A stretch of 64,000 bases of DNA from Escherichia coli (GTDB taxonomy: Bacteria > Pseudomonadota > Gammaproteobacteria > Enterobacterales > Enterobacteriaceae). Location of the stretch: assembly GCF_030013595.1 (NCBI RefSeq), contig NZ_CP122768.1, one strand, 5' to 3'. The position numbers and the translations under genes are program-made. This document shows, in pieces, positions 27,243-43,083 of this stretch (within the stretch, counting starts at the first letter, position 1; each line of letters begins with the position of its first letter). Under the pieces are notes generated by a model, which saw only the letters and a list, made by a program, of their open reading frames with translations, was not told the DNA's origin and did no database searches.

Positions 27243-27461
27243 GATATGGGGTTTGGCCGTTGTTAATGAGCAGGACAATCATGACCGCCAACGACTGGAT
27301 TCTCCCTTGGTTTATGTTGGTGCGCATAATGTATATTATGTTAAATAGCCTACGATGGTAAACAACTTCATAAATCTCCATTGCCTTTCACGAAATCAAC
27401 AGGTTAACGATTTCTAACATCCCTCCCATTTCTTGCGTTAGGTGTAGAGTACATTTACTTC

Positions 27462-28280: not shown

Positions 28281-28305
28281 ATTTAGTCACTCTGCACCGT
28301 TTTAT

Positions 28306-28947: not shown

Positions 28948-31310
28948 AAAAATATTTTGCGCAGTTTCACGCCTTTATCACCGAGCAGCAAAGCTGGTTT
29001 GAACAGCATCTGGCGACAGACTTCGAGCAGTCATGGGATGATCCTGTCTGGGTCTGCGGCAGCAATGGTAGTGGCTGGTTACGTGGTAATGGCAAAAATA
29101 AATTACGCTTTGATGAAATCAGCCGTACCAAAGGTATTGAGGGGCGCCATGCAGTGGCAGAAGACTATGCCCGGTTTATGAAAGCCCTGCTGGTACTAGT
29201 GTATCGGAGGCGAAATCGTAGCATATCCCCAGCGGTGGCTGTGGCAACGCTGATGATTTTGAAGCGCTGGTACCACTCGCTATTTGAGATGACCGGGCAA
29301 ACTCACCCAGTGTATCTAACCACCGGGGTAATTCAACGGTCAATGGATAGCCTCAGCGCAGCTTCGTCTCCAGGGGATCCCAATACCGCCAATTACAAAG
29401 GACGCTGTGTCAGTCTGCAAAAAATGGTTAATCACCAGTCATTCACGCTGGTGACACTGCAATATGTGTCTGATGCACAATATACCAATCAAACCAACCT
29501 GACCCGCAAAGCCCGGGAAACCATGGCTCTGAAACAGCAGGACAAGCTGACAGATACCACTACCGATGGTGAAGAGGCGTTGATTACCATTCGCGGTTTT
29601 CTGAACATCGTCGAATTAATCCAGCGGGTGGAAAGTGATGCTGAGAAAATTGCGTTAAATTGCCTGTTGTTATTGGTTATCACCGGCTTTCGCTCCATTG
29701 AAGCGTTTAATCTCAGACAGGATGCGCTGTTTAAACGCCAGATTGATGATCCGGCAATCCGCAAGCGGTTTCAGGACAAGGGATTACCCGATTATTTCCT
29801 TGGTATCCGTTATATTGGTGTCAAAGGTGCTGGGGAGCGAACGCATTGGGTAGAACCGCTGGCTGTACCGCTGGTCGAGAGTATATTCAGTTCCGTTAAA
29901 ATATTGACCGCACCAAAACGCAGTCATCTGACCTATCTACGGGAGAAATCTTTTACTGATTACCTGCCACAGGCCATCAGCGCCCTACCCGGTGAACAAG
30001 TTGAACTGGATGATGTGGTGACGTACATCACACAAACCGCCTCAAGTTTTCGTGGCCGGGCAGGACAACGAGACAAAACATCCAAAGCCCTCAACAAACG
30101 AGGTGTGCTGCCCGTTCTAGAAATGCCAGGGCCGAAAAACAGCAAATCTATCTATTATTCCAAGACTGACCTTAATCATTACATCAAGACCGAATTTGGC
30201 CTGACGGATGCCAACGAACCCTGTACGCACGCCTGGATGGAAAATGGCAAACGTTACGAAGTTAACTACGAAGACCTGTTATTTCTACATGAGAAGGGTT
30301 CGCTGGCATTAAAGCGCACACTGGCTTTGCTGGCTATACCGATACCATTCACTAACACACTTATGAATAAATTTTTAGGCAATGTTGAGCCTGATGGATC
30401 AGTATTCAGCAAATATCAATTACTGGAAGAGAATGGTACCCCCACCCGGATGCGTACCCACATTCCCCGGCACAACATCAATACCTTTCTTGCTATTGCG
30501 GATATCTCTGACCACTTACAGGCAATGTTGATGGGGCGAGTGGACATCACGCAGAATCAGCACTATCAACATCTGGCGCTTGCAGAACGGCGAAAAGCAG
30601 CCTCGTTGGTGCCCTTGCAGCCGATATCGACAGCACTAACTGCCGCGCCCTCTTCGTCCTCCATTGCTACGCCACTGGAAATCGTCAAACGGACCGGCCA
30701 ACTGGCGGTCACGAAACACATGACTTTGGACAATACCATCAAAGCCAACCTGCATACTTTTGACGATCGGGATGATGTAGCCAGGTTTGTCGAGGCGTCA
30801 TTTGCTGACGGCCTCTTTGAAGATGTTGCTGCCGCCTTTGAAGAAATCCGCGACGCAGAAGGACCAGAGCAAGCCTCTGCCATGGTGGCAAGACATGCCG
30901 TGATGTATCCGCTGAAATTTGGCTCCTGTATGCGGGAAGTTAACCTCTGGGGATGTCCTTATCGACTGAAATGCCAGAGTGCTGCCTTTTGTGAACATTT
31001 CACGCTGACAGGCCGGATAGATGAGCTACCCAATCTGATTGCCAAAAAACAGGCGTTACAGCAAGCACATTCGAAGTTGACCCAACTTACACAACATCAG
31101 CCTGACTACCAGACCAGACTGGCCGACATCGAACGACGGTTACAGCAACTCGAGGCAATACAAGCACAATGGCAGCGTCGTGCCAAGACTCAACAACTGG
31201 TTGCTGCGGAGAGTGTGTTGTCTGGTGGAGTAATCACCGAGGGCAAAGTCCGTACACTGGCCCAGCTTTTTGCACTTGAATACCAACAATTGATGCAGGA
31301 GAACGACTGA
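28944..31310 (+). CDS. Large tyrosine recombinase (Tn554 TnpB-like / GInt integrase 2), about 788 aa
   Basis: Box I-like LLLLVITGFRSIEAFNLRQD and box II-like THIPRHNINTFLAIADISDHLQAMLMGRVDITQNQHYQHL; ATG at 28944 overlaps the upstream stop (ATGA), suggesting translational coupling. Confidence 0.65.
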   Translation: MKKYFAQFHAFITEQQSWFEQHLATDFEQSWDDPVWVCGSNGSGWLRGNGKNKLRFDEISRTKGIEGRHAVAEDYARFMKALLVLVYRRRNRSISPAVAVATLMILKRWYHSLFEMTGQTHPVYLTTGVIQRSMDSLSAASSPGDPNTANYKGRCVSLQKMVNHQSFTLVTLQYVSDAQYTNQTNLTRKARETMALKQQDKLTDTTTDGEEALITIRGFLNIVELIQRVESDAEKIALNCLLLLVITGFRSIEAFNLRQDALFKRQIDDPAIRKRFQDKGLPDYFLGIRYIGVKGAGERTHWVEPLAVPLVESIFSSVKILTAPKRSHLTYLREKSFTDYLPQAISALPGEQVELDDVVTYITQTASSFRGRAGQRDKTSKALNKRGVLPVLEMPGPKNSKSIYYSKTDLNHYIKTEFGLTDANEPCTHAWMENGKRYEVNYEDLLFLHEKGSLALKRTLALLAIPIPFTNTLMNKFLGNVEPDGSVFSKYQLLEENGTPTRMRTHIPRHNINTFLAIADISDHLQAMLMGRVDITQNQHYQHLALAERRKAASLVPLQPISTALTAAPSSSSIATPLEIVKRTGQLAVTKHMTLDNTIKANLHTFDDRDDVARFVEASFADGLFEDVAAAFEEIRDAEGPEQASAMVARHAVMYPLKFGSCMREVNLWGCPYRLKCQSAAFCEHFTLTGRIDELPNLIAKKQALQQAHSKLTQLTQHQPDYQTRLADIERRLQQLEAIQAQWQRRAKTQQLVAAESVLSGGVITEGKVRTLAQLFALEYQQLMQEND

Positions 31311-31744
31311 TGCGCGGCAAGGAACTGGACACACTGATCGAGCACGAATTACAACTGATGCTGGTTGAAGGCTTTGACAAGTCCCCTATTTCCGCCAAGG
31401 CCCTGCATATTCGGCTCAAGGCAAAAGGTATCGTTAACGGTGGTTTAAGTACGCTGAGCAGCCTTGAGCGAAAACGCCTAATTGCTGCCTATGTTGATCA
31501 GCAACTTGGCCCATTGAATCTACGCCCAAAAGAAAAACAGCAATACGTCAACCGCAAAACCCGTCAGGCCTTGCTGGCCAGAAACCAGCAGTTGCAGGCG
31601 GAAGTCAGTGAGCTGCGAGACCAACTGGCGCAGAATACCCTGTCGTTGATAGAAATTGTCAAAGCGGTAAAAATCAATACAGTTATTCCGGTGGAAAGTC
31701 TGTTGGCTAAACATGTAATTCGGGAGTTACACAAGTCGTTATAA
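31310..31744 (+). CDS. Small coiled-coil protein (Tn554 TnpC-like / GInt accessory protein)
   Basis: 144-aa ORF whose ATG overlaps the upstream stop (TGATG); predicted coiled-coil (QQLQAEVSELRDQLAQNTLSL). Third gene of a recombinase-recombinase-small protein module. Confidence 0.5.
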   Translation: MRGKELDTLIEHELQLMLVEGFDKSPISAKALHIRLKAKGIVNGGLSTLSSLERKRLIAAYVDQQLGPLNLRPKEKQQYVNRKTRQALLARNQQLQAEVSELRDQLAQNTLSLIEIVKAVKINTVIPVESLLAKHVIRELHKSL

Positions 31745-31908
31745 TGCTGACATAGGAATATTTCGCCGACAGTTTCCCGGTTGTCGGCGAAATGCTGATT
31801 GTAATTTTTCGGCAAAGGGCATGGACGATTTCTTTTCGTTATTCTGCATATTGCTTACCTTCCCAAATTTCTCCAACCGTTAGTTGGAGAAATTAGATGG
31901 GTCGTAAA

Positions 31909-32103
31909 TCATGAATAAACGCCTTGATCTATTCGAAAAATGAGAATTGCAACTTTCAACGCCCCCTCTTCTGAGTCCATTATCTCAGAGGACGCTTTCC
32001 ACTGTAATGCTCTGTTTGGTTCATTGCACCAGTTTAATGCTGCACTTTCGTTACCTTCAAAAAGATCAATAGCCTTTTGTATAACATCATTTTTTGTCAG
32101 CAT
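31909..32103 (-). CDS. DUF2384-like (Xre/MbcA/ParS antitoxin toxin-binding domain) fragment, likely the frameshifted C-terminus of the upstream XRE protein
   Basis: ...AALNWCNEPNRALQWKASSEIMDSEEGALKVAILIFRIDQGVYS resembles the DUF2384 C-terminal signature; overlaps the XRE ORF by 17 nt across an A6 tract (T6 at 32090-32095 on the + strand). Confidence 0.45.
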   Translation of the reverse strand: MLTKNDVIQKAIDLFEGNESAALNWCNEPNRALQWKASSEIMDSEEGALKVAILIFRIDQGVYS

Positions 32104-32419
32104 GTTTTACACCTGAAGACGTTTTGAGTGCTTCGATAAGGCTACTTCGCTCTTCCTCTGTCATCCGAGATATGAGTAATGCAAGTTCTGCTGTTGTCTG
32201 ATCATCACAAAAAAGGTAGTTCAACGGCACGTTTAACTCTGCTGCCATCCGTCGAAGCGTATCAATATCGGGGACATGGCGTCCTTTCTCATAATGATTC
32301 ATACGACTGCTAGCCGATGCAGGATCAAAGCCAACAAGGAGACCCAGAGAGCGCTGTGATAAACCAGCCCTGCATCTCGCTTCCTTAAGTCGTTCTGGTA
32401 TCGGATTTTTTTCAGACAC
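32087..32419 (-). CDS. XRE-family HTH DNA-binding protein (110 aa)
   Basis: HTH signature LKEARCRAGLSQRSLGLLVGFDPASASSRMNHYEKGRHVPDIDTLRRMAAELNV. Confidence 0.7.
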   Translation of the reverse strand: MSEKNPIPERLKEARCRAGLSQRSLGLLVGFDPASASSRMNHYEKGRHVPDIDTLRRMAAELNVPLNYLFCDDQTTAELALLISRMTEEERSSLIEALKTSSGVKHADKK

Positions 32420-32503
32420 TGATTCATCTTCATTGGCCTCGAATGCTTAGATTGTCTAAGTATCTGCCATTGTTGTATACTTAGCAATCCTAAGTTAATA
32501 GCC

Positions 32504-33076
32504 TTGTTTTGTCATATGAATAGCCGAGTAACCAACCCTGAGTCGTACATATTTTCTGCAATCATCTTAATTGGCAAAGATAACTTCACCAGTAACGAAG
32601 TAGCAAAAATTCTTATCGAGCGATTTTCACTTCCGAAAAATTATTTAAAGGCAAAAGCTTTTGCTTATAACCAAATTCAATCCCTGGTTAGAAAAGGATT
32701 ATTAAACAAAGTAAGAAAAACAGGCGTGTATCAATATTTATACTCAGTCACAGCAGAATTCAATGTCGCAATAGAGTGCGTGAAATTAATTGAGGCAACC
32801 CCAAAGTCTTCCTGTCAACTTGTTTCAAGTGCTACCAACCATGAACACAGAAATGTAAATATCCAAATAAAGTCTCTTATTGAAAAATACAGCAGTGAAT
32901 TGGCGAAAGTATCAGGAGCAAAGGAGATTTATGAGGAATTGATAGTTGCTGTGCCGAGCAGGGAAAATGAATTCAGGAAGCTTTCTCTTGAACAAGAGAA
33001 AAAACACATCAAGATAAATGAAAAAATAAATACATTAATTGGAATTATTAATCAATCTCTTGCAGTAAGGCAATGA
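32504..33076 (+). CDS. Hypothetical protein (190 aa), AT-rich, divergent from the XRE gene
   Basis: Open frame only; lysine-rich with a possible N-terminal winged-helix-like segment and C-terminal coiled coil. No family recognised. Confidence 0.5.
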   Translation: MFCHMNSRVTNPESYIFSAIILIGKDNFTSNEVAKILIERFSLPKNYLKAKAFAYNQIQSLVRKGLLNKVRKTGVYQYLYSVTAEFNVAIECVKLIEATPKSSCQLVSSATNHEHRNVNIQIKSLIEKYSSELAKVSGAKEIYEELIVAVPSRENEFRKLSLEQEKKHIKINEKINTLIGIINQSLAVRQ

Positions 33077-33891
33077 ATTTTAGCAAGTATTTGAAGCTAA
33101 ATGGAGTCATGAAAAAGAGAGGGCAAAGCCGAACTCCGCCCTCTCCCGTCAAGCACTGATATATCTCATTAAAATGAGATTAACAGCGCGCACTCCTATA
33201 TGCTAGTCGTATATAAATATAATGTCAGCCAGTCCCGGATGCAACTCTTTAATGAAGTTCAGTACTCTCTTTTTTTAGTTATCGAAATGATAGTTGGTAC
33301 AAGGGAACACACGAAGAGGAAAATTGCGATGACTTTGACGCAGAGCATGTTGAGTCTATTATTGCGACCCTCGAAGCTCTGGATGCGTTAGATTTACGCC
33401 ACGGAAGATGGACTGTAAGTATCCCTCCAATAGTGCGACTCACTTACCCAGATTGTAAGTTCAAACGGTCGAAGGCACTAGATTCTGATAAGAATTTGAG
33501 GCGCATGAGTACAGGCATTCGATTGTCAGCTTCTGGGTAGTTGTGGGAATTCTGCTCAAAGTGCCGCTGGCCAAAACATATTGGGCGCTGGTCTGTGGCG
33601 GCAAAATGGTGTCACGTAAAAGATACAGATGTTCCAGTCTATTTTTGCCCAATAACGTGCCCCGGGTTCAGTTTTTTTGCTCGGGACTAAAACGCTTATC
33701 CAGATCAGCCGCCAGCTGTTCAATACTCTTCGTTGAGCCTTTATAAATATACCAATCAAACTGTTAAAAACTCGTTCAAATTCGACCAAATATTATTACT
33801 GGCTGATATTAGTTCGGTTAGGCAAAGCGCAACAAACAACTAAGAAGTGCGCCTCAAAAAATTAATTGTAAGGCGCCCCCCTAAAACACAT

Positions 33892-36219
33892 TTATTCTGT
33901 TATATTTCTTGGCAACATAGAAAAAGATGCTTGAGACAATCCTGCGCGCTTGAATTTATACCGTATATATGTTGACACTTCCATCTCATGGTTTGACAAC
34001 AAAATCTGACGATCTGAAAGCTCTACCCGTAACAAATCACTCAATGAAGCAATGTTAATCTCATCCATTGACTGTACTGGATCATCAATCAGTATAAATG
34101 GATTAAGCGCATATACCCTATTCAATGTTAGGAAAAATGCCAAACCTAATGATGCGATTTGCCCACTACTCATAGACAGGATTGCATCATGATCAGACTT
34201 CAGCGCAGTATTGAATTTGAGTATATCTCCTTTACCGCTCACTATAAACAAACCTAACCCACGCTGATAATTCTGTATGAGTCTTCCACTATATATATGG
34301 AATAACAGCTCTATATCACCAATAGTCTTTTTCGCATACTGTTTCGCAGTGTCGTCCAATTGCCGCCTAAGATTAACAATTTTTGCTTTTATTTTTTTGC
34401 CAGCTTCAATCCTAGAACTGAGCTTATCAAGCTCCGCTACTTTGGACTTGTACTCTTCGCTTTTGAATTTAGAATGAGCGGCTCTGAGATAGGATTCTTT
34501 ATTTTCAAAATCTGAAACACTAAGTGAGGTTATATCTGATGCGTTCAAGAAAGCCATCTCTAAGCTAGATGACCAGTCTAAAGGGAGCACATCCTTTTCT
34601 GGTTTTTTAGCTGTAGCAATAATCCCTTTTGCTTCATTAAACCGTAACAGCAGAGCTGCATCATCAGCCGTAAAACTAAGATCTTTTGATACGCCATAAT
34701 TTACCAACTGCAAAGCCACTTCACTTATGATTGAGAACTTAGATTCTGCTGCTGTGAGAGCCTTAAAAAGCACACTATCGAAATCTTTTGCAACTAGGTC
34801 ACGCTGCTGTGTGAATGCTGTTATCTGTAAATTTAGTAAGTCCTGTATTGACCTTACTGTCTCCTCCAACTTCTGGGCAGAAGCATCTATTTCAGATCGA
34901 ATTCTTTCCGCATTATTTACAGCGGCTTCCTCTAACGCAGCGTAAGTCGCCCATGATAACCCACAGAATGGACAACCGGAAATTTCCAAATCTTCACATT
35001 CTTGGTGTCGCCGCAGCAACTCTGCATGAGCATTTAGTAAATTTACAAGCTTTGCGTTCTTAGCTGCACTATCAGATTTAATTAGATCCCGTGCCTCAAT
35101 GAGACTATTTACACCAACCAAATCAGCAGCGTTCTTAAGACCGTTTAGGTCTACTTCATTTATCTCTGAAGCTGGCTTTCTGAATATCAAAAGATCATGA
35201 TCCAGCCCAACTAGCGTTGACTCCTTTACTTTCAGACCTTCATATCCAGCTACTTCAGAACCCAACTGAAGAGCCAACTTTATATCGACCTCTCTTTTTA
35301 AAAACGCATCAATATTACTATTAGCCTTTCTCGTCAGAACTTCATCAAAGTTCTGATATATTCTAAATATATTCCGTAATTCACGTATCAGAGTTTCAAT
35401 ATCTGTATCATTTACAGCCGATAGAGGCTGTTCAACATCCCAACCAGGTGACGGCGTCGCGGTACTTAACCGCTTGAAGTCAACGGAATTCTCGGCATCT
35501 TGAAACTGACCACTAAGCTGTTTAATTTTTTCATTCAACTCAGCCTGGAGGTCAGTATGCACTTTCCCCGTATAAGATTCCGTAATAATACTTTCTAACT
35601 CGGAGCAATATGATATCTGTCTCGTCAATTTATCGGTATTAATAAGATGCTCAATGCCTTTTTTTCTTTCAGTGGCATCCGTCGAGTACAGGTATCTATT
35701 CTGCCCTTGCTCAAGATAGTTCAATAAAGAGAAATTTTTTAAGAAGTTCTCTCCTAGAATACTCTCTAGTGCTTTAGAATCAAGACTCTCTCCAAACTTA
35801 TCGGAGTCTATACTGCTTATTTCGTAAAGCTTAAAAATAGAGAAGTTATCAGGTGCATTATTATCCGGGTTCGATAAATCCGCTATGGTAGCAACACGAG
35901 CTAGGAAAATTGACTCTCCTGAATCTTGATTTATGAGCTCAGCTCTAATAGCGATGTCGCCCTCTTTATTTCTATTCCAGTATATGTTTTCTTCAAATTG
36001 TTTTTTGCGCGAACGTTTTGCAACTGTTGCATCATTTGTATTGATAATTCTTTGTATAACGCCAGTAAACAAAAGCTCCAACGCATCAAATATGCTAGTT
36101 TTTCCAAAACCATTGGGGCCATCCAAGGTAATCATGGAGGCAGATCGAAAATCAATAGATGTATTTTCAAATGGCTTGAAATTTTCAATCTTGAGGCTGG
36201 ATATTTTCCATTTCTTCAT
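33892..36219 (-). CDS. Rad50/SbcC/SMC-like ABC ATPase with coiled-coil insert and CxxC zinc-hook-like motif (LmuB-like), 775 aa
   Basis: N-terminal Walker A (IENFKPFENTSIDF...LDGPNGFGKTSIFDALELLF), central CPFCG motif in a predicted coiled coil, C-terminal signature/Walker B/H-loop (SSGQIASLG...FILIDDPVQSMD...LLSNHE). Confidence 0.65.
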   Translation of the reverse strand: MKKWKISSLKIENFKPFENTSIDFRSASMITLDGPNGFGKTSIFDALELLFTGVIQRIINTNDATVAKRSRKKQFEENIYWNRNKEGDIAIRAELINQDSGESIFLARVATIADLSNPDNNAPDNFSIFKLYEISSIDSDKFGESLDSKALESILGENFLKNFSLLNYLEQGQNRYLYSTDATERKKGIEHLINTDKLTRQISYCSELESIITESYTGKVHTDLQAELNEKIKQLSGQFQDAENSVDFKRLSTATPSPGWDVEQPLSAVNDTDIETLIRELRNIFRIYQNFDEVLTRKANSNIDAFLKREVDIKLALQLGSEVAGYEGLKVKESTLVGLDHDLLIFRKPASEINEVDLNGLKNAADLVGVNSLIEARDLIKSDSAAKNAKLVNLLNAHAELLRRHQECEDLEISGCPFCGLSWATYAALEEAAVNNAERIRSEIDASAQKLEETVRSIQDLLNLQITAFTQQRDLVAKDFDSVLFKALTAAESKFSIISEVALQLVNYGVSKDLSFTADDAALLLRFNEAKGIIATAKKPEKDVLPLDWSSSLEMAFLNASDITSLSVSDFENKESYLRAAHSKFKSEEYKSKVAELDKLSSRIEAGKKIKAKIVNLRRQLDDTAKQYAKKTIGDIELLFHIYSGRLIQNYQRGLGLFIVSGKGDILKFNTALKSDHDAILSMSSGQIASLGLAFFLTLNRVYALNPFILIDDPVQSMDEINIASLSDLLRVELSDRQILLSNHEMEVSTYIRYKFKRAGLSQASFSMLPRNITE

Positions 36220-36940
36220 GAATCAGAGTCTCGATTAGTTTGTCTGCTTCAATCCCAGATGCAGAAGCATTAAAGATTTTGAGATGAAGACCGGTCAATT
36301 TTTTCTCGGCGAGTGCTTCCTTTACATAAATATCAAGCGGCTTTAGTGAGCTTTCCTTAACAGGAACCTTTACAAATGGAAGCTTTATAAAAATTCTCGC
36401 CGCGACGCTATATAATGTAGGCGATAGTGGTTGATCTCGATATTCTGCAAACATCCTATCATCGACAACAATCGCTGAAACGCTTTCGAAGTTGTGCCCT
36501 TCTAACAACCTAAGCTCTTCCTCGCTGTAATAAAGAAAATATTTTTTAAAATAATATGGATTCTCTTCAATTCCAAACACCTTACTCTCAATTCCATTAA
36601 AATCAACTCGGTGCCTTAATTTATGCAAAATAATCAGATCGGTATTTTTATCGAAAGCAGGATCAGATTTGAATGTTTCAGGAGCATACAGTAACACTAA
36701 TTTATTCAGCACCTGCGGTGATGGTATATTTTCACACTCAACCACAGCGAGGAATCGCTTCCTATCTCCACTATCCTGACTAAAATAAGTCAAAGACTTA
36801 TAATCAACACCTTCAAGACCAGCTAAAGTTTCTCCTGCCGAATACTCTATGGTGACGTCATCTGCTTTAGAATAGTCGCCTGTATTAAACAAAGTAAACT
36901 CATGTTTCAAGGCAGCCTGTAGAACAATATCTTTAATCAT
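36185..36940 (-). CDS. Middle gene of the three-gene operon (251 aa), unknown function, possibly LmuC-like
   Basis: Start overlaps the upstream stop by 8 nt and its 3' end overlaps the downstream ATPase start, indicating translational coupling. No recognisable motif. Confidence 0.5.
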   Translation of the reverse strand: MIKDIVLQAALKHEFTLFNTGDYSKADDVTIEYSAGETLAGLEGVDYKSLTYFSQDSGDRKRFLAVVECENIPSPQVLNKLVLLYAPETFKSDPAFDKNTDLIILHKLRHRVDFNGIESKVFGIEENPYYFKKYFLYYSEEELRLLEGHNFESVSAIVVDDRMFAEYRDQPLSPTLYSVAARIFIKLPFVKVPVKESSLKPLDIYVKEALAEKKLTGLHLKIFNASASGIEADKLIETLIHEEMENIQPQD

Positions 36941-38195
36941 TCAACTTCACCCTCGCCTCTTCCTTTGAAATTATTTTTGCATCAAAGGCTTTAGTTATTT
37001 TGTTACGATCCTTACCCATCAATGAAAACTCATCTTCTACAGCATCCCGCGAAGCTCCGGTAGCTGCACAAAATCGCTCAGCGGGTGAAAAAATATTTGC
37101 TCTAGCTGCGATTAGCCATTGATATTCAACTAAGATATCTATCAGCTCTGGATCGCTTTTCAGCTGCTCTATTAGATCTTCAGCAAACCTATGCTCCCGT
37201 CGAGCATTGTCTGCCGAAATTGCTGTTGGCAAATAAAAATCTCCGGCAGAGCACCTATAGTAAGGAGGCTTTTGCTCACTCAGTGGCGCTTTATCTATAT
37301 CGTAGATCACATCCACATAATCATAAACACTGTTCTCACTCACGACCATTGTGGAAGATCCAAAACATAACGACTTCCACAACCATATAAATGGAGTATC
37401 ACCCAACTCTTTAATCTGATCGTAAACATTTGCAACTTTTTGAATAACAGTTCTATCTGCTGTTTTTTCCATTGTATTGGTATACCCATACAATGATTTA
37501 CAAACGGCCATCCTGGCTTGGAACATTTTGTATACAATGTCGTCTTCATGGGTAGCGGTGAGGCTTAATAACTCTACAATCTTCTCACTTTTTAAAGTTT
37601 GAGTAAACGCGGCTTGTGCGGCGCTCATTAACCCATCCTGATTGCACGCGTGTATATATATTACTTGAGCGGCAATATGACTCTGCAAAGCCTCGAACTT
37701 CAAATTCACTAAAAAATCACTGCAAGGTAACTCTTCGGAAACCAGGTACTTCTCAATTTTTGATTTCGTTTTTTCTTCAACATCTTGGAGATAGCAGTAA
37801 GGCAGTCCATCGTAAGTATAAAATTTAACGACATTCCCATTGCTGCCAACAAAATCAGAAGCATCATCAAGGCGCGCAGATGTATGAAAATATCTTTTGG
37901 TAGTCTTATCACACAACATATATGTAGATGCAGCTTTTTCGAGAGCCTCCCTATAGGCAGCTCTTTTATCATCTGCTAGCGCTTTTACCTGATGCGTAGA
38001 AACTGCAACTCCATTTTCAATTATCGAAAAATCATCAATGCTGTCGATTTGCAACTCAAACGACATTTTATTGAGCACACATTCTATGGAATGATAAAGC
38101 GCTAAATGCCCTTGATAAATAAACCCACTCCATGTAGGTGCAGCTGTATGAGGATGGGAGGAAGCCGATTTCGACATGCAATATGTCCTAGGCAA
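36933..38195 (-). CDS. Candidate effector of a three-gene defense operon: PD-(D/E)xK nuclease-like protein (possibly Cap4/DUF4297-like, LmuA-like), 420 aa
   Basis: N-terminal region WSGFIYQGHLALYHSIECV...QIDSIDDFSIIENGVAVSTHQVK has the E..D..E/QxK spacing of restriction-endonuclease-fold proteins; first gene of an overlapping operon; AT-rich. Confidence 0.5.
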   Translation of the reverse strand: MPRTYCMSKSASSHPHTAAPTWSGFIYQGHLALYHSIECVLNKMSFELQIDSIDDFSIIENGVAVSTHQVKALADDKRAAYREALEKAASTYMLCDKTTKRYFHTSARLDDASDFVGSNGNVVKFYTYDGLPYCYLQDVEEKTKSKIEKYLVSEELPCSDFLVNLKFEALQSHIAAQVIYIHACNQDGLMSAAQAAFTQTLKSEKIVELLSLTATHEDDIVYKMFQARMAVCKSLYGYTNTMEKTADRTVIQKVANVYDQIKELGDTPFIWLWKSLCFGSSTMVVSENSVYDYVDVIYDIDKAPLSEQKPPYYRCSAGDFYLPTAISADNARREHRFAEDLIEQLKSDPELIDILVEYQWLIAARANIFSPAERFCAATGASRDAVEDEFSLMGKDRNKITKAFDAKIISKEEARVKLND

Positions 38196-38524
38196 ATTTA
38201 GAGACAGAGTCAGAAGTAACCTTCTAACTCAGTAGAATATGATCTTAATTTCTGTATCCGATGTTTATATTTTTTGTTGAACGCGCCCAGCGGCGTTATG
38301 AAAACTTCCTTGATTGTCATTTTTATGCATTCTCTTGATCGATAGGAATTTAAATCCCAAAAAGATTAAAAAAACACCCAAAAACGGATGTTTATTCGAC
38401 ACTGCCTGCGTGCCATGAGTGCACCGCCATCAATTAAATGGATCTTATCGAGTGATACTGTATATCACTGATGGTTTTTTACTCCATTCCCCTGAAAATG
38501 GACGCAACTTCCCCGATGCGGCTC

Positions 38525-39757
38525 TCAGCCGCACACCCGCTGTTGCGCCAGTGGCTCATGCATCAGGACCAGCTCTGTCAGACGGTAGCCCCGCTTCAGC
38601 CCCGTAAAACGCATCTGACATCCGCACAGGATGCACTTTAGCGGGTCAACCTTCAGTAACCGCTGATACATCCCTCTCCACCTGATTTGCATCGCCGTCT
38701 TTCTCACCGTCTCCGTTATGACGTACACAACATCTTCCAGTAACCGGCGCTTTACCGGACTCAGGAAACCGTAGTACCTCACCATACGGAACCCCTTATC
38801 CGCCACATGCCAGGAGAACCTTTCCATAAACTCATCACCACTCATCACCAGGTATTCTTCCCGTTTTGTCCGGTGACTGTTGTAACGCAGACCAATTTCA
38901 TCCTGACCAGCATAGTGCTCCAGACGGCTCATCGGCACCGGCGGTTTTTTCAGGTAAGAGCCGAAGTACACCGCCACATGTGTGGCGTTATCCATCACCC
39001 GGGATACGTTGACATTCCAGCCCCGCCGGTAATGACTGTCCAGGAAGCGATTCCAGTCCCGTCTGCTGCTTCCTTCAACTGCCAGCGCATCCGGTATCAC
39101 CAGCTCCGGGTATTTTCGTGACAGTAACCACGTTATCCTGTAACGCCACATGCTCATCACCTTACGGGCGTAAAAATGAAGGTTTTTCCAGGTGTGGTCT
39201 GGTGTCACGCCGCCGGCCGTTGTCGACAGGTGAATGTGCGGATGCCACTGCTGGTCACGTCCCCATGTGTGGATGACCGTGAATATCCCCGGCACCACAT
39301 CTGCCTGGCGGCAGATTTCCTGTATCACATCCGCAGCAATGCGGCTCATCTCTGCCAGTAACCACCGGTTGTGGAACACCAGGGACCAGTACTGGCAGGG
39401 AAGTGTGAACACAATATGCTGCCACGGACAGTCGGGAACCAGACTCAGCAGATACTGTATCCACTGTGCGCCAGCCTTCACTCCGCAGTGCGGGCAGGAG
39501 CGACTTTTACACCGGAAGCAGACCTTTTTTGTGTGGCAACAGTCCGGAGATGAACAGCACCACTGTGTGTACCCCATCAGCGTGGTTCCGCACGCCATGA
39601 TTTTTGTCACCGACTCAATGACTACCGGACGCACTGAACCTTCCGGTTGTTTCTCCAGCCAGTTAAGCCAGCGGTTTCCCTGCTGAAAAATGTCGGCAAA
39701 ACGGGGAAGCATCAGAAGGGCGGGGGGACTCCGTCCGGCCAGTGAACCGTGCCACAC
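38525..39757 (-). CDS. tnpA: IS91-family transposase (HUH rolling-circle type)
   Basis: 410-aa ORF with N-terminal Cys-rich zinc-binding region (CHTKKVCFRCKSRSCPHCG) and HUH-like motif HTWGRDQQWHPHIH. Confidence 0.7.
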   Translation of the reverse strand: MWHGSLAGRSPPALLMLPRFADIFQQGNRWLNWLEKQPEGSVRPVVIESVTKIMACGTTLMGYTQWCCSSPDCCHTKKVCFRCKSRSCPHCGVKAGAQWIQYLLSLVPDCPWQHIVFTLPCQYWSLVFHNRWLLAEMSRIAADVIQEICRQADVVPGIFTVIHTWGRDQQWHPHIHLSTTAGGVTPDHTWKNLHFYARKVMSMWRYRITWLLSRKYPELVIPDALAVEGSSRRDWNRFLDSHYRRGWNVNVSRVMDNATHVAVYFGSYLKKPPVPMSRLEHYAGQDEIGLRYNSHRTKREEYLVMSGDEFMERFSWHVADKGFRMVRYYGFLSPVKRRLLEDVVYVITETVRKTAMQIRWRGMYQRLLKVDPLKCILCGCQMRFTGLKRGYRLTELVLMHEPLAQQRVCG

Positions 39758-40077
39758 TCCGGGCAGTACATGCCGCCGGCGCTGATACCGGCAAGAATGG
39801 TCGCAAACTCCCGCTCCGTGCAGCGGGCTATTTCAGGATACCCTTCGTCATCGACACGAACAAACCAGAAGACCAGCTTTTTGTTTCCGGCATCCACAAA
39901 GAAGGGAATATTCAGGTCTGCGCAGCACTCAACGGCATCGTCAAAATTATCAAAGCGCAGAGCTTCTGCGTCTTCTTCGTCAAAGAAGTCATCGTCGTGA
40001 AGCTTCACGACATAGCGGGGAAGTTTGCTTCTTTGAGGGGCAGGTTTTCGTTTACGGGGTTTAGCTGAACGGGACAT
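39712..40077 (-). CDS. IS91 ORF121-like accessory protein
   Basis: 121-aa ORF immediately upstream of and overlapping the transposase gene, the size and position of IS91 orf121. Confidence 0.5.
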   Translation of the reverse strand: MSRSAKPRKRKPAPQRSKLPRYVVKLHDDDFFDEEDAEALRFDNFDDAVECCADLNIPFFVDAGNKKLVFWFVRVDDEGYPEIARCTEREFATILAGISAGGMYCPECGTVHWPDGVPPPF

Positions 40078-40964
40078 ATAACTACCTGAAAGACAATGAT
40101 ATTGTCTGTTTTTATAACGGTAATTTCAGGCCATGACAAGCCGCAGCCGCCAAGCTGCCTACTCGAGCGATATCGCTATGATATCACCGAATGTAACATA
40201 CCTGTAGGGTCAAAAAAAGGGTCAGCCAAACATTCTGGAGTGTTCGGTATCGTTGGTACCATTCATGCAAAATGGACTTAAATCTTAAGAAAGACACTCC
40301 ATTAGCTTAAGCTTCCCTACCTTACCCTACCAATACACCTAGCCAGCCGTGAGAACGCTACCGCCATCAGAGGCATTAGTCCCGATTAAGTATCGATGCA
40401 ACCAAATGTTACCAAAATTCATGAATTGTTCAAGAAGGCAATCAGATAATCCCTAAAGCTTTATGGGCCTGGTTATGCGATTACATTGGGAAATGGTTCA
40501 TGAACAGAAGTAGAGCAAGCTGCCAAGAAATGCTCATAAGAGGCGAATTTCCTGTTAGTTCATGAAGCCACCTGGAAGTGAATTCATCTTTCTATTAAAA
40601 ATATTCATTTAAAGCAAAGAGATATGTCATCTGTGGTTTATGAACTGGATTCTCGCTCAACATAAGTTAAATGTGGTGGGTTTGTTCTTAAGTTCATGTG
40701 TTCCGCTCTTTCAGTAGCTTAACTGATGAATCAGTCAGCAGCTCTTGCCGTGCAAGCTACGCGGCGGTTCGTACCAGATTGGCCACCTCCATCTCCTGGT
40801 TCGCTTTCCCCTCCCCCCGGTAAACCTCACCCAACGTTAATTAATGATGTCAGTATGTGGGCGCTATCCTTGTATGTAAAATCCACTGACGATTATGCCC
40901 ATCTGTGAAAAAAACTCACAATGCCATTCGATGCATCTCCATACTGAACGAGGCGTTATCGTCT

Positions 40965-41864
40965 TTATCGCCCCGTAGTGGATATCAGAAAATCAATCAG
41001 GGCCTTCACTCTTTTCGTTTTACCCGCGTTTTTGGGGTAATAGAGATACACTGGCGGGTAGGTTTTCCAGTAGCTCTCCATCACCGGAATAAAGCGCTCC
41101 CTGTCCGGCTGTAACTGCCAGACAGGCTCAAACAAGCGCCCAATTCCCAGCCCGTTACGGATCCCGTCTGCCATAACGTCAATATCGTTGCTGATTAACT
41201 GCCCCGGCATCTCAACGGTCAACTGCTCACCGCGATCGTTCAGGAGCAGCGGAAGGATGCGGTTGTTGGTGATAAAACGGTAACCAATCAGCTGGTGATG
41301 ACAGAGATCTGCCGGCACTTCAGGCGTTCCATGTCGGGAGAGATACGCTGAGGATGCATATAATCCTTCACGAAACGGTTTCATTAACGGTCGGGCCACC
41401 ACCCCTCCCTCAAGAATATCGCCAAAACGGATCCCCAGATCAAAACGCTCTTTGATGATATTCACGGTACCGTCGTAGACCGAAATTTCTAACTGTATAC
41501 CCGGATATTGCTGACAGAATTCTGCCATCGCAGGCTTAAGAATTAACAGGTAGGCAAAACGCGAGAGCGTAATTCGCACCATCCCAGAGGGCTCCTGATG
41601 CTGGTCGCGAATGCTTTCAAGCGAGTTTTCCAGCGACTCCACCGCCGCAGCGGTCTGTTCCAGCAATAATTGACCGGTTTCCGTCAGCTCTATACGGCGG
41701 GTCGTACGCACAAAAAGCGGATGGCCGATATACTCTTCCAGCAGCTTTAGTGCATTGCTGACGGAGGGAGGCGTAATTTCCAGTTTCCTTGCGGCTGCCG
41801 AAATATTGCCCTCCCGCGCAATGCTCTGGAAGATGCGAATCTGGTTATAAAGAGCGTTATTCAT
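40965..41864 (-). CDS. LysR-family transcriptional regulator
   Basis: 299-aa ORF with N-terminal LysR HTH (IRIFQSIAREGNISAAARKLEITPPSVSNALKLLEEYIGHPLF); divergent from the downstream oxidoreductase genes. Confidence 0.8.
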   Translation of the reverse strand: MNNALYNQIRIFQSIAREGNISAAARKLEITPPSVSNALKLLEEYIGHPLFVRTTRRIELTETGQLLLEQTAAAVESLENSLESIRDQHQEPSGMVRITLSRFAYLLILKPAMAEFCQQYPGIQLEISVYDGTVNIIKERFDLGIRFGDILEGGVVARPLMKPFREGLYASSAYLSRHGTPEVPADLCHHQLIGYRFITNNRILPLLLNDRGEQLTVEMPGQLISNDIDVMADGIRNGLGIGRLFEPVWQLQPDRERFIPVMESYWKTYPPVYLYYPKNAGKTKRVKALIDFLISTTGR

Positions 41865-42000
41865 AATGTTTTCCTAAAGCAATTCTCGCCTGATTATTAA
41901 GTACAGTCTAAAAATGCTTAAGTCAATGACCCTCTAATCTTCCTGAAATACGCCTCTTATACTTTAGTCTCTTTCTACTACGACCTGAGTTCAGGAGACT

Positions 42001-42312
42001 ATGATGCGAATTTTATGTCTGGATATCCCTGCCCCTGGAGCATCGCTGGAGAAATATGCTCCGCACCTCAACGCTGAAGCGCTGCACGCCTGGGGATTGT
42101 ATAAATCAGGCTTCATCCGCGACATCTACTTCCGTCAGGACAGACCTGGCGTCGCTATTTTTCTTGAATGTGACTCTGTCGATGAAGCGATGAACGTTAT
42201 GGCCGAATTCCCGTTGGCAAAAGCAGGCTTACTAAGCTTCGAGTGTATACCGCTTGGCTCCTTTATTAACTGGGAAAATCTCTTCGCCGATGAATTTAAA
42301 AATAAAGAGTGA
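42001..42312 (+). CDS. Muconolactone delta-isomerase-like small protein (103 aa)
   Basis: About 100-aa protein with MLI-family-like pattern (…GLYKSG…DSVDEAMNVMAEFPLAKAGLLSFECIPL); assignment by resemblance only. Confidence 0.45.
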   Translation: MMRILCLDIPAPGASLEKYAPHLNAEALHAWGLYKSGFIRDIYFRQDRPGVAIFLECDSVDEAMNVMAEFPLAKAGLLSFECIPLGSFINWENLFADEFKNKE

Positions 42313-42320
42313 GGACCGAT

Positions 42321-43010
42321 ATGAAACCTGCATATAAACCAGTGCTATGTGTCGTTTCCAGCCATCCGATTAAAGGCGCATCCGGTGTACCAACCGGTTT
42401 TTTCCTGGCCGAGCTGACTCATCCGCTGAAAGTACTGGAAGATGCCGGAATAAAAACAACAATAGCCAGTATTCGCGGGGGGCAGCCACCGGTGGATGGA
42501 TTTGACCTCAGCGACCCTGTTAACGCCTGGTACTGGAACGAAACCGATTTTCAGCAGCGCCTGGCAACAACACCTGCGTTATCCGAGCTGAAAGGTGCCG
42601 ATTACAGCGCAGTTTTCTTTGCAGGTGGTCATGGGACCATGTGGGATTTCCGTGATAATCAGGATGCCCAGCGTATTATCCGCGAAGTGTATGAAAGTGA
42701 TGGGATTGTCTCAGCCGTCTGCCACGGGCCTGCGGCATTGGTTGACGCAAAACTCAGTAGCGGCGAATACCTGATAAAAGGGAAAAATGTGGCGGCCTTT
42801 ACCAACAAGGAAGAGGAAGAAGTTCACACAACAGATGTGGTTCCCTTCCTGCTTGAAACCGCACTTCGCGAGCATGGTGCGCTTTATCATGAAGCTCCAA
42901 ACTGGTCTGAAAACGTGGTTACCGACGATCGCCTTATCACGGGGCAGAATCCCGCTTCAGCACATGGGGTTGGTGTGGCGCTGTTAAATGCACTCCGCCG
43001 GACAGCTTAA
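42321..43010 (+). CDS. DJ-1/PfpI (class I glutamine amidotransferase-like) family protein
   Basis: Nucleophile-elbow motif SAVCHGPAAL typical of DJ-1/Hsp31-type proteins; ATG at 42321 with RBS GAGGA upstream. Confidence 0.65.
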   Translation: MKPAYKPVLCVVSSHPIKGASGVPTGFFLAELTHPLKVLEDAGIKTTIASIRGGQPPVDGFDLSDPVNAWYWNETDFQQRLATTPALSELKGADYSAVFFAGGHGTMWDFRDNQDAQRIIREVYESDGIVSAVCHGPAALVDAKLSSGEYLIKGKNVAAFTNKEEEEVHTTDVVPFLLETALREHGALYHEAPNWSENVVTDDRLITGQNPASAHGVGVALLNALRRTA

Positions 43011-43083
43011 TTAATTCATCGTTACTCACCTTACTTGGCCGGTTTAAGTCAGCCACGATCCGGCCTTTTTTCAGGAGCTGAAT

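What the first reader, a model, noticed from the sequence alone, without database searches (positions are those of the whole stretch)
40418..40700. Array of GTTCATGAAC-like palindromes downstream of the LysR gene
Within about 280 bp of non-coding DNA between the IS91 element and the 3' end of the LysR gene the palindrome or near-palindrome recurs six times: TTCATGAA (40418-40425), GTTCATGAAC (40496-40505), GTTCATGAAG (40558-40567), GAATTCATC (40581-40589), GTTTATGAAC (40636-40645), GTTCATGTG (40692-40700). The same motif appears on the other side of the cluster (see the next finding). It looks like a repeated operator or other protein-binding array rather than chance.
Basis: seen in the sequence. 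Interest (0 to 1): 0.5.

Follow-up and report, generated by a model that had tools for sequence, protein, structure and literature searches.

The report
Recombination-end motifs of a dif-adjacent island
The repeated GTTCATGAAC palindromes are real and non-random, but they are not an operator for the LysR gene: they are the conserved docking motifs at the right-hand end of a "three-integrase" genomic island (GInt type) that sits beside the chromosome's dif site and carries a Lamassu anti-phage system.

Summary
Observation confirmed. Window 40366-40665 holds 9 TTCAT/ATGAA half-sites, against 2.0±1.3 in local dinucleotide shuffles (P≈1e-4). It also holds 3 exact TTCATGAA, seen in 0 of 20,000 shuffles. 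No other 300-bp stretch of the 64 kb has 7 or more half-sites.

Interpretation only partly right. The array occupies the last ~250 bp of a 13.3-kb integrative island (27347-40672). The island lies immediately beside the E. coli dif site (27319-27346) and ends in ...AACATAA-GTTAAAT. It has the ginABCD-like organisation of GInts (three tyrosine-recombinase-like genes plus a small gene; degraded here), Lamassu cargo, and a later IS91-family insertion.

In relatives from Enterobacterales, Acinetobacter, Providencia and Photobacterium, the same half-site (A/T)A(C/G)TTCAT recurs at fixed offsets from the GTTAAAT crossover core. It sits at +21 in 35 of 41 left ends (42 junctions listed, one a duplicate locus). 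In 12 distinct right ends, whatever the cargo, there is a half-site at -26/-25 in 9 and a palindrome at about -107 in 9.

The sixth listed motif (40692) is the +21 site of a second, recombinase-less island in tandem.

Best reading: these are cis-acting sites bound by Gin proteins to assemble the recombination complex. Binding itself is inferred, not shown. This is a new detail within a known element family, of moderate interest.

The parts
27319..27346 (+). Chromosomal dif site GGTGCGCATAA-TGTATA-TTATGTTAAAT. Its last 7 nt (GTTAAAT, 27340-27346) are the left copy of the crossover core (attL).
   Evidence: Exact 28-mer. The sequence is given as the experimentally confirmed E. coli dif in PMC3025954. 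It is present in island-free genomes L006 and L007.
27347..40672 (+). Island 1: a GInt-type integrative island of 13.3 kb (including a 1.8-kb IS) inserted beside dif.
   Evidence: Absent from E. coli KE55 and MEI003, with precise junctions. Three different right flanks follow ...ATAAGTTAAAT in E. coli, in a plasmid and in E. whittamii.
27367..27371 (+). Left-end half-site TTCAT, 21 nt after the core.
   Evidence: TTCAT is at +21 in 35 of the 42 junctions listed, which are 41 distinct junctions.
27394..27406 (+). IHF-like consensus AATCAAcaggTTA in the left end (+48).
   Evidence: The strict WATCAANNNNTTR consensus is at +47/+48 in 11 of 32 non-redundant left ends. Background is 0.024 hits per 130 bp. 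This is a consensus match only.
27459..27463 (+). Second left-end half-site TTCAT (+113), overlapping the ginA start codon at 27462.
   Evidence: TTCAT is at +110 to +113 in 17 left ends. It is visible directly before or over the ATG in many loci.
27462..28947 (+). Remnant of ginA and ginB (two tyrosine-recombinase genes), fused and broken by a 1,471-bp deletion at 28277.
   Evidence: NCBIfam integrase matches. Intact genes of 466 and 522 aa are present in L008. The deletion is mapped against L009. The RefSeq annotation reads 'site-specific integrase' / partial.
28944..31310 (+). ginC-like gene of 788 aa: a large, divergent tyrosine-recombinase-like protein.
   Evidence: 131 homologues, all unnamed. 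Conserved R261, H517-x-x-R520 and Y552. Only a faint Pfam Phage_integrase match.
31310..31744 (+). ginD-like small gene of 144 aa.
   Evidence: Conserved next to ginC in nearly all loci. The alignment and model show an all-helical protein with one long helix.
33892..38195 (-). Cargo: Lamassu / ABC-three-component defence operon (lmuA 36933-38195, lmuC 36185-36940, lmuB 33892-36219).
   Evidence: PADLOC matches to LmuA, LmuC and LmuB. RefSeq annotation in L001-L003.
38345..40161 (-). IS91-family insertion sequence, a later insertion inside island 1.
   Evidence: Absent from L001-L003 and L009, which are otherwise 99.8-99.9% identical. The transposase matches NF033538 at 1.7e-85.
40418..40425 (.). 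Palindrome TTCATGAA at -248 from the core. Lineage-specific.
   Evidence: Only a half-site is kept in L058.
40496..40505 (.). Palindrome GTTCATGAAC at -169. Partly conserved.
   Evidence: Half is kept in L056 (-165). Palindromes at comparable distances are found in L036 (-159/-156) and island 2 (-181/-178); L042 has a single half-site at -156.
40558..40567 (.). Palindrome (TA)GTTCATGAA(G) at -107. Family-wide conserved site.
   Evidence: A palindrome lies at -106 to -108 in 8 of 12 distinct right ends. L061 has only the ATGAA half there, and L027 and island 2 have only a TTCAT half-site. Sites lie at about -98 in L036 and L042. G-T-x-C-A-T-G-A is invariant in the 9-sequence alignment.
40583..40587 (+). 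Single half-site TTCAT at -83.
   Evidence: Kept in L056, and at -81/-79 in L042 and L036.
40604..40608 (+). Single half-site TTCAT at -62.
40636..40645 (.). GTTTATGAAC: half-site ATGAAC at -26. Family-wide conserved, and inverted relative to the +21 left-end site.
   Evidence: ATGAA is at -26/-25 in 9 of 12 distinct right ends. TGAA is invariant in the alignment.
40659..40672 (+). Right terminus AACATAA-GTTAAAT. GTTAAAT at 40666-40672 is the right copy of the crossover core (attR).
   Evidence: Invariant AA-ATAAGTTAAAT in 9 right ends. Junction mapping.
40673..48456 (+). Island 2: a recombinase-less derivative of a related element (LysR, aldo/keto reductases and other cargo) in tandem with island 1.
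   Evidence: Absent from O157 and many E. coli, whose match to the window starts at 48450. Its left end is homologous to that of the E. cloacae element L043.
40693..40697 (+). TTCAT at +21 of island 2's left end.
   Evidence: row 'after_win_isl1'.
48268..48349 (.). Island 2 right-end motifs: GTTCATGAAC at 48268-48277 (-181), ATGAA at 48325 (-125), TTCAT at 48341 (-109). The core GTTAAAT is at 48450-48456.
   Evidence: The terminus ...cccagaataGTTAAAT is shared with Providencia L036.

Best explanation
The palindromes are the cis-acting protein-docking sites of the right end (attR) of a GInt-type integrative island.

The island's own Gin proteins recombine the element at a 7-nt core, GTTAAAT. 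This core is the outer part of the XerD arm of the chromosomal dif site.

The half-site (A/T)A(C/G)TTCAT flanks the core at fixed distances: -26 and about -107 on the right end, with extra copies at -169 and -248 in this lineage, and +21 and about +111 on the left end. In the excised circle, the -26 and +21 copies would form an inverted pair bracketing the crossover. The outer copies, together with an IHF-like site at +48, would wrap DNA into a higher-order recombination complex, in the way arm-type sites do in lambda attP.

The binder is most likely a Gin protein. GinD is my first guess because it is the best-conserved Gin protein. The large GinC protein or an N-terminal domain of GinA or GinB are alternatives.

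Shown: the island boundaries, the dif adjacency, and the motif's enrichment and positional conservation independent of cargo.

Inferred: that proteins bind these sites, which protein does so, and that the sites are required for integration or excision.

In this genome the system is a relic, because ginA/ginB are deleted or fused and an IS has landed inside the island.
For: 1. Boundaries. Comparison with island-free E. coli places the array in the last 250 bp of a 13.3-kb insertion ending ...ATAAGTTAAAT. Three unrelated right flanks follow that terminus.

2. Element type. Intact relatives carry four co-oriented genes at the left end: 466 and 522 aa, both matching tyrosine-recombinase models, then 788 aa, then 143 aa. 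This is followed by variable cargo and a short right end, which is the GInt layout described in PMC5385486.

3. Positional conservation.
- TTCAT is at +21 in 35 of 41 distinct left junctions.
- ATGAA is at -26/-25 in 9 of 12 distinct right ends.
- A TTCATGAA palindrome lies at about -107 in 8 of 12 distinct right ends, with a ninth keeping one half.
- These span elements whose GinC is only 30-40% identical to this one.

4. Footprint in alignment. The 9 aligned right ends are 60% identical overall, but GTxCATGA, TGAA and AAxATAAGTTAAAT are invariant.

5. Unbiased k-mer test. The top 6-mers in both end sets are all TTCAT-derived, 11- to 22-fold enriched, and present in 11 of 12 right ends.

6. 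Cargo independence. The same end is found with Lamassu, type I restriction-modification, TIR and RelE/ParE cargo.

7. Island 2 has no Lamassu genes yet carries the motif at the equivalent places.

8. An IHF-like consensus sits at +47/+48 in 11 of 32 left ends, against 0.024 expected per 130 bp.

9. Local statistics.

10. GinD is the most conserved Gin protein between E. coli and Acinetobacter: 57%, against 38-39% for GinC. Its model is helical with a 40-residue helix that could act in dimerisation.
Against: - No binding or recombination data exist for this element.
Their role is less certain than that of the -26 and -107 sites.
- Arm-type sites of classical integrases are usually not palindromic.
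- The GinD model has no recognisable DNA-binding fold match in the PDB.
- Only 12 distinct right ends could be located, because most relatives' cargo ran beyond the fetched 10-kb flank.
- Right ends of type 2 (L036, L042, island 2) place the sites at somewhat different offsets.
- The published GInt work reported no common feature in the 3' end (PMC5385486). That work examined different, Pseudomonas-centred elements.
Confidence: 0.78

Rival explanations
1. The array is a set of operators for a transcription factor that controls cargo or island genes. Candidates are the island's Xre-type HTH protein (32087-32419) repressing the Lamassu operon or outward transcription, or a site that autoregulates the gin operon.
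For: The sites are palindromic, as expected for dimeric HTH proteins. The array lies upstream, in the divergent sense, of the Lamassu operon. One left-end copy overlaps the ginA start codon, so a regulatory side-role for that copy is plausible. PADLOC calls the HTH protein a 'control protein'.
Against: The same end segment and motif positions occur with unrelated cargo, and in islands that lack this HTH gene, for example L009, which lacks window 32119-33538. The array starts about 405 bp from the lmuA start codon after removing the IS. No sigma-70-like promoter was found inside the array. The positions are fixed relative to the crossover core, not relative to any gene.
Confidence: 0.08
2. The sites are bound by a conserved host protein rather than by an element protein. 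For example, a nucleoid or terminus-associated factor could be used by the element as an accessory, as PepA/ArgR are used at cer or IHF at attP.
For: The motif is nearly the same from E. coli to Acinetobacter and Photobacterium although the Gin proteins have diverged to 30-40% identity. The elements sit beside Xer sites, where host proteins act.
Against: The motif does not resemble the XerC or XerD arms, the IHF consensus, or other Enterobacterial consensus sites I could recall. It is absent from empty attB sites. Outside element ends it occurs at background frequency. GinD is itself well conserved.
Confidence: 0.1
3. Chance clustering in AT-rich spacer DNA, or a decayed remnant of a coding or IS sequence with no present function.
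For: The region is 37-43% GC. Two of the six listed motifs are only half-sites. The island is degraded in this genome.
Against: P≈1e-4 or lower against local dinucleotide shuffles. The motif recurs at identical offsets in independent elements. No ORF longer than 61 aa, no Rfam match and no tandem or dispersed long repeat were found.
Confidence: 0.02

Closest known systems
[quoted passage not shown] 2017, PMC5385486
   Same: - A four-gene recombination module at the left end (two clear tyrosine recombinases, one large divergent recombinase-like protein, one small protein), then variable cargo, then a short AT-rich right end.
- Site-specific insertion flanked by imperfect direct repeats of about 11 nt (TTATGTTAAAT / ATAAGTTAAAT).
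- Host range, including Pectobacterium, Escherichia and Aeromonas (PMC10214605).
- Carriage of defence systems in E. coli (PMC10121019).
   Different: The described GInts insert in an ABC-transporter gene or at ssb, whereas this clade lies beside dif or plasmid Xer sites. The authors found no common right-end feature, whereas here a half-site recurs at fixed offsets. Sequence similarity to a Pseudomonas element of the same layout is weak (24.6% identity, E 4e-10).
IMEX (integrative mobile elements exploiting Xer: CTXphi, VGJphi, TLCphi, the gonococcal island, EludIMEX/EcloIMEX), PMC5357621
   Same: Located at dif. The integrated element is bordered by a good dif site on one side and a degenerate one on the other. 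Tandem accumulation occurs beside dif.
   Different: IMEX carry no integrase and recombine in the dif central region through XerC/XerD. This element encodes its own recombinases. Its right junction has no XerC arm or central-region similarity. The exchange point lies inside or after the XerD arm, since every attL has TTAT and every attR has ATAA before GTTAAAT. Whether the Enterobacter 'EcloIMEX' elements are the same kind of element was not tested.
Arm-type sites of lambda-family attP and similar end arrays (for example TnsB sites in Tn7 ends)
   Same: A short motif distinct from the crossover core is repeated at fixed distances on both sides of the core. An IHF-like site lies between copies. 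The motif is independent of cargo.
   Different: Several copies here are perfect palindromes. The binder is unknown. The recombination machinery has three recombinase-like proteins plus a small protein, rather than Int with Xis.
SEs (strand-biased circularizing integrative elements) and Tn554, PMC10214605
   Same: Multi-recombinase module with a large recombinase-like protein and a small auxiliary protein at one end. Target-specific and non-conjugative.
   Different: In SEs the second gene (tfp) lacks catalytic motifs, whereas here the second gene gives the strongest tyrosine-recombinase matches. SE ends are 13-19-bp imperfect inverted repeats around a 6-bp spacer. Tn554 has only two recombinases.

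Membership tests
GInt (ginABCD islands) | Operon of three tyrosine-recombinase-like genes plus one small gene at the 5' end of the island. | tested here: met
   L008 has 466, 522, 788 and 143 aa genes in one orientation. Genes A and B match integrase models. The set is syntenic in about 40 loci. In the window itself A and B are fused by a deletion.
GInt (ginABCD islands) | Tripartite structure: gin operon, variable cargo, short poorly conserved AT-rich 3' end. | tested here: met
   Cargo differs among relatives: Lamassu, type I restriction-modification, TIR, UvrD-like helicase and others. The right end is about 250 bp at 37% GC.
GInt (ginABCD islands) | Site-specific insertion flanked by imperfect direct repeats of 10-17 nt. 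| tested here: met
   TTATGTTAAAT (27336-27346) and ATAAGTTAAAT (40662-40672), 9 of 11 identical. The same pair is found in relatives.
GInt (ginABCD islands) | Sequence homology to the reference GinA-D proteins of Pseudomonas. | tested here: inconclusive
   Only an indirect test was possible. tblastn of the GinC-like protein hits a P. aeruginosa plasmid locus with the same gene layout at 24.6% identity, E 4e-10. Reference sequences were not held.
GInt (ginABCD islands) | Excision to a circle and integration that require all four gin genes. | not testable with these tools
   Needs PCR and genetics. The copy in the window is expected to be inactive.
IMEX (Xer-exploiting elements) | Integrated at dif or a dif-like site. 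| tested here: met
   An exact dif 28-mer abuts the island. A dif-like site lies to the left of the gin operon in 33 of the loci scanned.
IMEX (Xer-exploiting elements) | The element's attachment site has XerC and XerD arms around a central region where strand exchange occurs. | tested here: not met
   The 28 bp ending at 40672 (ctggattctcg-ctcaac-ataagttaaat) match dif only in the XerD arm. The TTAT/ATAA difference between attL and attR puts the exchange to the right of the central region.
IMEX (Xer-exploiting elements) | No recombinase of its own; depends on host XerCD. | tested here: not met
   Three recombinase-like genes are conserved at the left end. Dependence on Xer was not testable.
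SE (strand-biased circularizing integrative elements) | Gene order intA, tfp (non-catalytic), intB (large, catalytic), srap. | tested here: not met
   The second gene matches integrase_1, XerA, XerC and XerD models over its catalytic region. This fits the GInt order (PMC10214605).
Transcription-factor operator array for the adjacent LysR gene | Sites lie in the regulated gene's control region and travel with that gene. | tested here: not met
   The array lies beyond the 3' end of the LysR gene and across an island junction. L004 and L005 carry the LysR gene but have no match to GTTCATGAAC with up to 1 mismatch.
Arm-type recombination sites (lambda attP-like architecture) | A motif distinct from the core, repeated at fixed offsets on both sides of the crossover, independent of cargo. 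| tested here: met
   Offsets +21, +110 to +113, -26 and about -107. k-mer enrichment of 11- to 22-fold.
Arm-type recombination sites (lambda attP-like architecture) | The motif is bound by the element's recombinase or accessory protein and is needed for recombination. | not testable with these tools
   Requires EMSA or footprinting and mutant mini-elements.

The most novel reading that the evidence does not exclude
A large clade of GInt-type islands across Gammaproteobacteria uses the outer XerD arm of dif, and of plasmid Xer sites, as its attachment site. It recombines there with its own three-recombinase machinery, leaving dif intact. The (A/T)A(C/G)TTCAT sites at -107, -26, +21 and +111 would then be the first defined recognition code of GInt ends, read by GinD or GinC. 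If so, the hipA-ydeT defence hotspot of E. coli is built by tandem accretion at dif. Elements now labelled 'Xer-dependent IMEX' in Enterobacter (EcloIMEX/EludIMEX) may in fact be GInts, or the clade may recruit host XerD bound to the retained arm as a structural partner.
Probability: 0.35. Interest if true: 0.7.

Novelty: new variant of a known kind. Interest (0 to 1): 0.5.

Why it matters
GInts are widespread carriers of defence, virulence and resistance genes. How they recognise their own ends has been unknown: the founding paper reports no common feature in the 3' end (PMC5385486).

A short motif at fixed offsets from the crossover, conserved from E. coli to Acinetobacter, gives a concrete and mutable target for biochemistry. 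It also gives a practical signature for delimiting such islands, including recombinase-less derivatives such as island 2 and the remnants present in more than 1,000 Klebsiella plasmids.

The dif adjacency explains why the hipA-ydeT interval is a defence-island hotspot in E. coli (hotspot 20 in PMC10121019). It also raises the question of how an element can target the dimer-resolution site without disabling it.

For this particular window the array is a relic in a degraded island, so it has no expected regulatory effect on the LysR gene.

Tried and rejected
- **Internal repeats.** A search of 40080-40970 found only short chance pairs.
- **Whole 10-mer in relatives.** Scanning for GTTCATGAAC with up to 1 mismatch mostly picked up the ginC start-codon context gttcATGAAA and gave no clusters. 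Only the half-site analysis was informative.
- **Cluster scan false positives.** It flagged an (ATGAAG)n coding repeat in L024 and ATGAA-rich coding DNA in L038 and L054.
- **ncRNA.** Rfam at E≤1 found nothing.
- **Promoters and terminators.** None were found in the array.
- **Small ORFs.** None longer than 61 aa, and none conserved.
- **Pfam and NCBIfam on GinC and GinD.** No significant family.
- **GinD structure.** The model is confident (pLDDT 83.5), but Foldseek against the PDB gave no match with E<1, so an HTH fold could not be shown.
- **Literature.** No paper in the held library contains both 'GInt' and 'dif site'. The EcloIMEX papers I could read do not describe the elements' recombinase content. 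L043's flanks did not identify the setB-yeiP locus, so that link stays untested.
- **Tn554-like idea.** This was my first thought from memory. It was replaced by GInt once intact relatives showed three recombinase-like genes.
Full report
**1. The observation**

- Three are exact TTCATGAA palindromes (40418, 40497, 40559).
- One is a one-mismatch 10-mer (GTTTATGAAC, 40636).
- Two are single TTCAT half-sites (40583, 40693).
- A seventh half-site at 40604 was missed.

Counting TTCAT/ATGAA, the 300 bp before 40666 hold 9 copies. Twenty thousand dinucleotide-preserving shuffles of the same stretch gave 1.97±1.33 (P≈1e-4). Three exact TTCATGAA occurred in none of those shuffles. No other 300-bp stretch of the 64-kb window reaches 7 copies. 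The clustering is therefore real.

**2. Where the array sits**

BLAST of the spacer against complete E. coli genomes split it into two blocks with a sharp boundary at about 40663-40672.

Alignment with E. coli KE55 and MEI003 shows that window 27347-40662 is an insertion between the 3' side of hipA and the 3' side of the LysR gene. These two genomes have the LysR cluster but not the left block. About 10 bp are shared at the two junctions.

The shared core is GTTAAAT, at 27340-27346 and 40666-40672. A third copy at 48450-48456 is the point where many other E. coli, including O157, begin to match again.

The window therefore holds two islands in tandem:
- Island 1, 27347-40672.
- Island 2, 40673-48456, which carries the LysR and aldo/keto reductase genes.

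An IS91-family element (38345-40161) is a later insertion inside island 1. It is missing from otherwise 99.8-99.9% identical copies.

The right boundary of island 1 is confirmed by three unrelated sequences that follow ...ATAAGTTAAAT. They are found in E. coli, in plasmid or chromosome variants, and in Escherichia whittamii.

**3. What island 1 is**

Its left end encodes integrase fragments, a 788-aa protein and a 144-aa protein.

Homologues of the 788-aa protein are all unnamed. They conserve an R...HxxR...Y pattern.

Forty-seven related loci were fetched from one genome per species. In intact relatives the module is four co-oriented genes of about 466, 522, 788 and 143 aa. The first two match tyrosine-recombinase models. 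The window copy has lost 1,471 bp, which fuses the first two genes.

[quoted passage not shown] It differs from the related SE elements, whose second gene is non-catalytic (PMC10214605).

GInts are already known to carry defence systems in E. coli, and hipA-ydeT is listed as defence hotspot 20 (PMC10121019).

The cargo here is a Lamassu / ABC-three-component system, plus an Xre-type 'control protein' and an antitoxin-like gene.

**4. The neighbouring site is dif**

The 28 bp immediately left of island 1 (27319-27346) are GGTGCGCATAATGTATATTATGTTAAAT. This is the experimentally confirmed E. coli dif sequence (PMC3025954).

A dif-like site lies in the same position and orientation in 33 of the loci scanned. 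These come from Pectobacterium, Enterobacter, Citrobacter, Providencia, Aeromonas, Photobacterium, Vibrio, Acinetobacter, Psychrobacter and Moraxella. Plasmid-borne relatives lie beside Xer-like sites with other central regions.

Every attL keeps TTATGTTAAAT and every attR has ATAAGTTAAAT or AATAGTTAAAT. The 17 bp to the left of the attR arm do not resemble the XerC arm or the central region. Exchange must therefore occur within or just after GTTAAAT, not in the dif central region where XerCD act.

No paper in the held library links GInts with dif. Enterobacter 'EcloIMEX/EludIMEX' elements are described at dif as Xer-dependent. I could not test whether they are the same kind of element.

**5. 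The motif is a family-wide, position-specific feature of the ends**

*Left ends.* TTCAT starts exactly 21 nt after the core in 35 of 41 distinct left-side junctions. The consensus is (A/T)A(C/G)TTCAT(A/G). A second copy lies at +110 to +113 in 17 of them, often overlapping the ginA start codon.

*Right ends.* Twelve distinct right ends could be located:
- island 1;
- E. coli, Klebsiella and Salmonella plasmids with type I restriction-modification, TIR, a second Lamassu type, or RelE/ParE cargo;
- four Acinetobacter species;
- Providencia and Photobacterium;
- island 2.

ATGAA lies at -26/-25 in 9 of the 12. A TTCATGAA palindrome lies at -106 to -108 in 8 of the 12. L061 keeps only the ATGAA half there, and L027 and island 2 keep only a TTCAT half-site. 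L036 and L042 have sites at about -98.

*Alignment.* In an alignment of nine right ends with 60% mean identity, the invariant columns are GT-CATGA (the -107 site), TGAA (the -26 site) and AA-ATAAGTTAAAT.

*k-mer count.* An unbiased 6-mer count ranks only TTCAT-derived words at the top of both end sets. They are 11- to 22-fold enriched and present in 11 of 12 right ends.

*IHF-like site.* A strict IHF consensus sits at +47/+48 in 11 of 32 non-redundant left ends, against 0.024 expected per 130 bp.

| Coordinate | Position | Conservation |
|---|---|---|
| 40636 | -26 site | family-wide |
| 40558 | -107 site | family-wide |
| 40496 | -169 | only partly conserved |
| 40418 | -248 | only partly conserved |
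| 40583 | -83 | half-site shared with close relatives |
| 40692 | +21 site of island 2's left end | family-wide position |

Island 2's left end is homologous to that of an Enterobacter cloacae element with an intact gin module (L043). The 'other side' motifs at 48268-48349 are island 2's right end.

**6. Mechanism**

Shown:
- The array is part of the mobile element's backbone, not of the LysR locus or of any cargo.
- Its elements keep fixed distances from the crossover core across deep divergence.

Inferred:
- The sites are docking points for Gin proteins.
- In the excised circle, the -26 and +21 copies form an inverted pair about 46 bp apart around the core.
- The outer copies and an IHF-bent segment organise a higher-order complex, by analogy with arm-type sites of lambda attP.

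Which protein binds is open.
- GinD is the best conserved Gin protein: 57% identity between E. coli and Acinetobacter, against 38-39% for GinC.
- Its N-terminal 60 residues are strongly conserved.
- Its model is helical with a 40-residue helix that could mediate dimerisation. This would suit the palindromic copies.
- However, no DNA-binding fold match was obtained.

**7. Rivals**

*Operator array for cargo or island genes.* This is disfavoured because the end travels with unrelated cargo and occurs in islands that lack the HTH gene. It lies at least ~400 bp from lmuA and contains no promoter-like signal. A side-role of the +113 copy in gin autoregulation remains possible.

*Host-factor binding.* This cannot be excluded, but the motif matches none of the Xer or IHF sites and is absent from empty attB sites.

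*Chance or decay.* This is contradicted.

*ncRNA or small ORF.* There is no support.

**8. Verdict**

The 'protein-binding array' reading is right in kind, but the 'operator near LysR' reading is wrong in assignment.

The array is the right-end recognition architecture of a GInt-type island integrated at the XerD side of dif. In this genome it is a relic of an inactivated element.

The element family is known. The fixed-offset motif and the dif-arm target appear not to be described in the literature I could search. I therefore rate it a new variant of a known kind, with moderate interest (0.5).

Noticed in passing
window 27319-27346: The exact E. coli dif site lies in the window, so the window spans the replication terminus. 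Two islands are stacked on its XerD-arm side while dif itself stays intact.
   Followed up: yes
window ~26872 (hipA): hipA carries an internal deletion of about 510 bp relative to E. coli KE55 and MEI003 (L004 5023-5534 has no counterpart). The toxin gene is therefore probably inactive here.
   Followed up: no
window 28277: A 1,471-bp deletion relative to E. whittamii L009 fuses ginA and ginB. RefSeq relatives annotate the second part as a partial integrase. Island 1 is therefore likely immobile.
   Followed up: partly
window 38345-40161: An IS91-family element is inserted between the lmuA start and the island's right end, absent from near-identical islands elsewhere. About 11 bp are shared at both junctions in the BLAST alignments.
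   Followed up: partly
window 40673-48456: Island 2 (LysR, DJ-1/PfpI-type amidotransferase, aldo/keto reductases, carboxymuconolactone decarboxylase) has no recombinase genes. It keeps a left end homologous to an Enterobacter cloacae GInt (L043) and a motif-bearing right end. It looks like a recombinase-less derivative that could be mobilised in trans.
   Followed up: partly
L061 3040-3074 (K. pneumoniae plasmid NZ_CP026752.1) and more than 1,000 other Klebsiella plasmids: A 75-bp right-end remnant, TTCATGAACTGAATTCTCGCGCAACATAAGTTAAAT, sits between a RelE/ParE toxin gene and pcoE. It is very widespread in Klebsiella plasmids.
   Followed up: no
L056 10901-10928; L013 56-83; L025 6930-6957: Plasmid-borne or variant relatives abut Xer-type sites with non-dif central regions, for example AGTGCGTATAA-TCAGCA-TTATGTTAAAT. 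The shared feature of the targets is therefore the XerD arm.
   Followed up: partly
window 27394-27406 and the equivalent +47/+48 position in 10 other left ends: A strict IHF consensus, WATCAANNNNTTR, lies at a fixed offset between the +21 and +111 half-sites.
   Followed up: partly
junctions at window 27347, 40673, 48457; L002 5512; L006 and L007 16008: The three bases right of GTTAAAT differ among otherwise homologous junctions (tgg, cgt, gga, gtg). This is what resolution of a short heteroduplex overlap, reported for GInts, would produce.
   Followed up: no
L042 21148-21175; L045 9245-9275; L041 12384-12415; L027 16235-16265; L058 and L060 after the core: Right ends are often followed directly by another left end (TTCAT at +21). 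Tandem arrays of these islands are therefore common, not peculiar to this window.
   Followed up: partly
L024 17930-18060: An (ATGAAG)n hexamer repeat, apparently a coding Asp/Glu-rich tract, in an Acinetobacter courvalinii cargo gene gave a false motif cluster.
   Followed up: no
window 36215-36222 and 11590-11597: Two further exact TTCATGAA lie inside coding DNA (the lmuC/lmuB overlap and an unrelated gene). They are isolated and look like chance occurrences.
   Followed up: no
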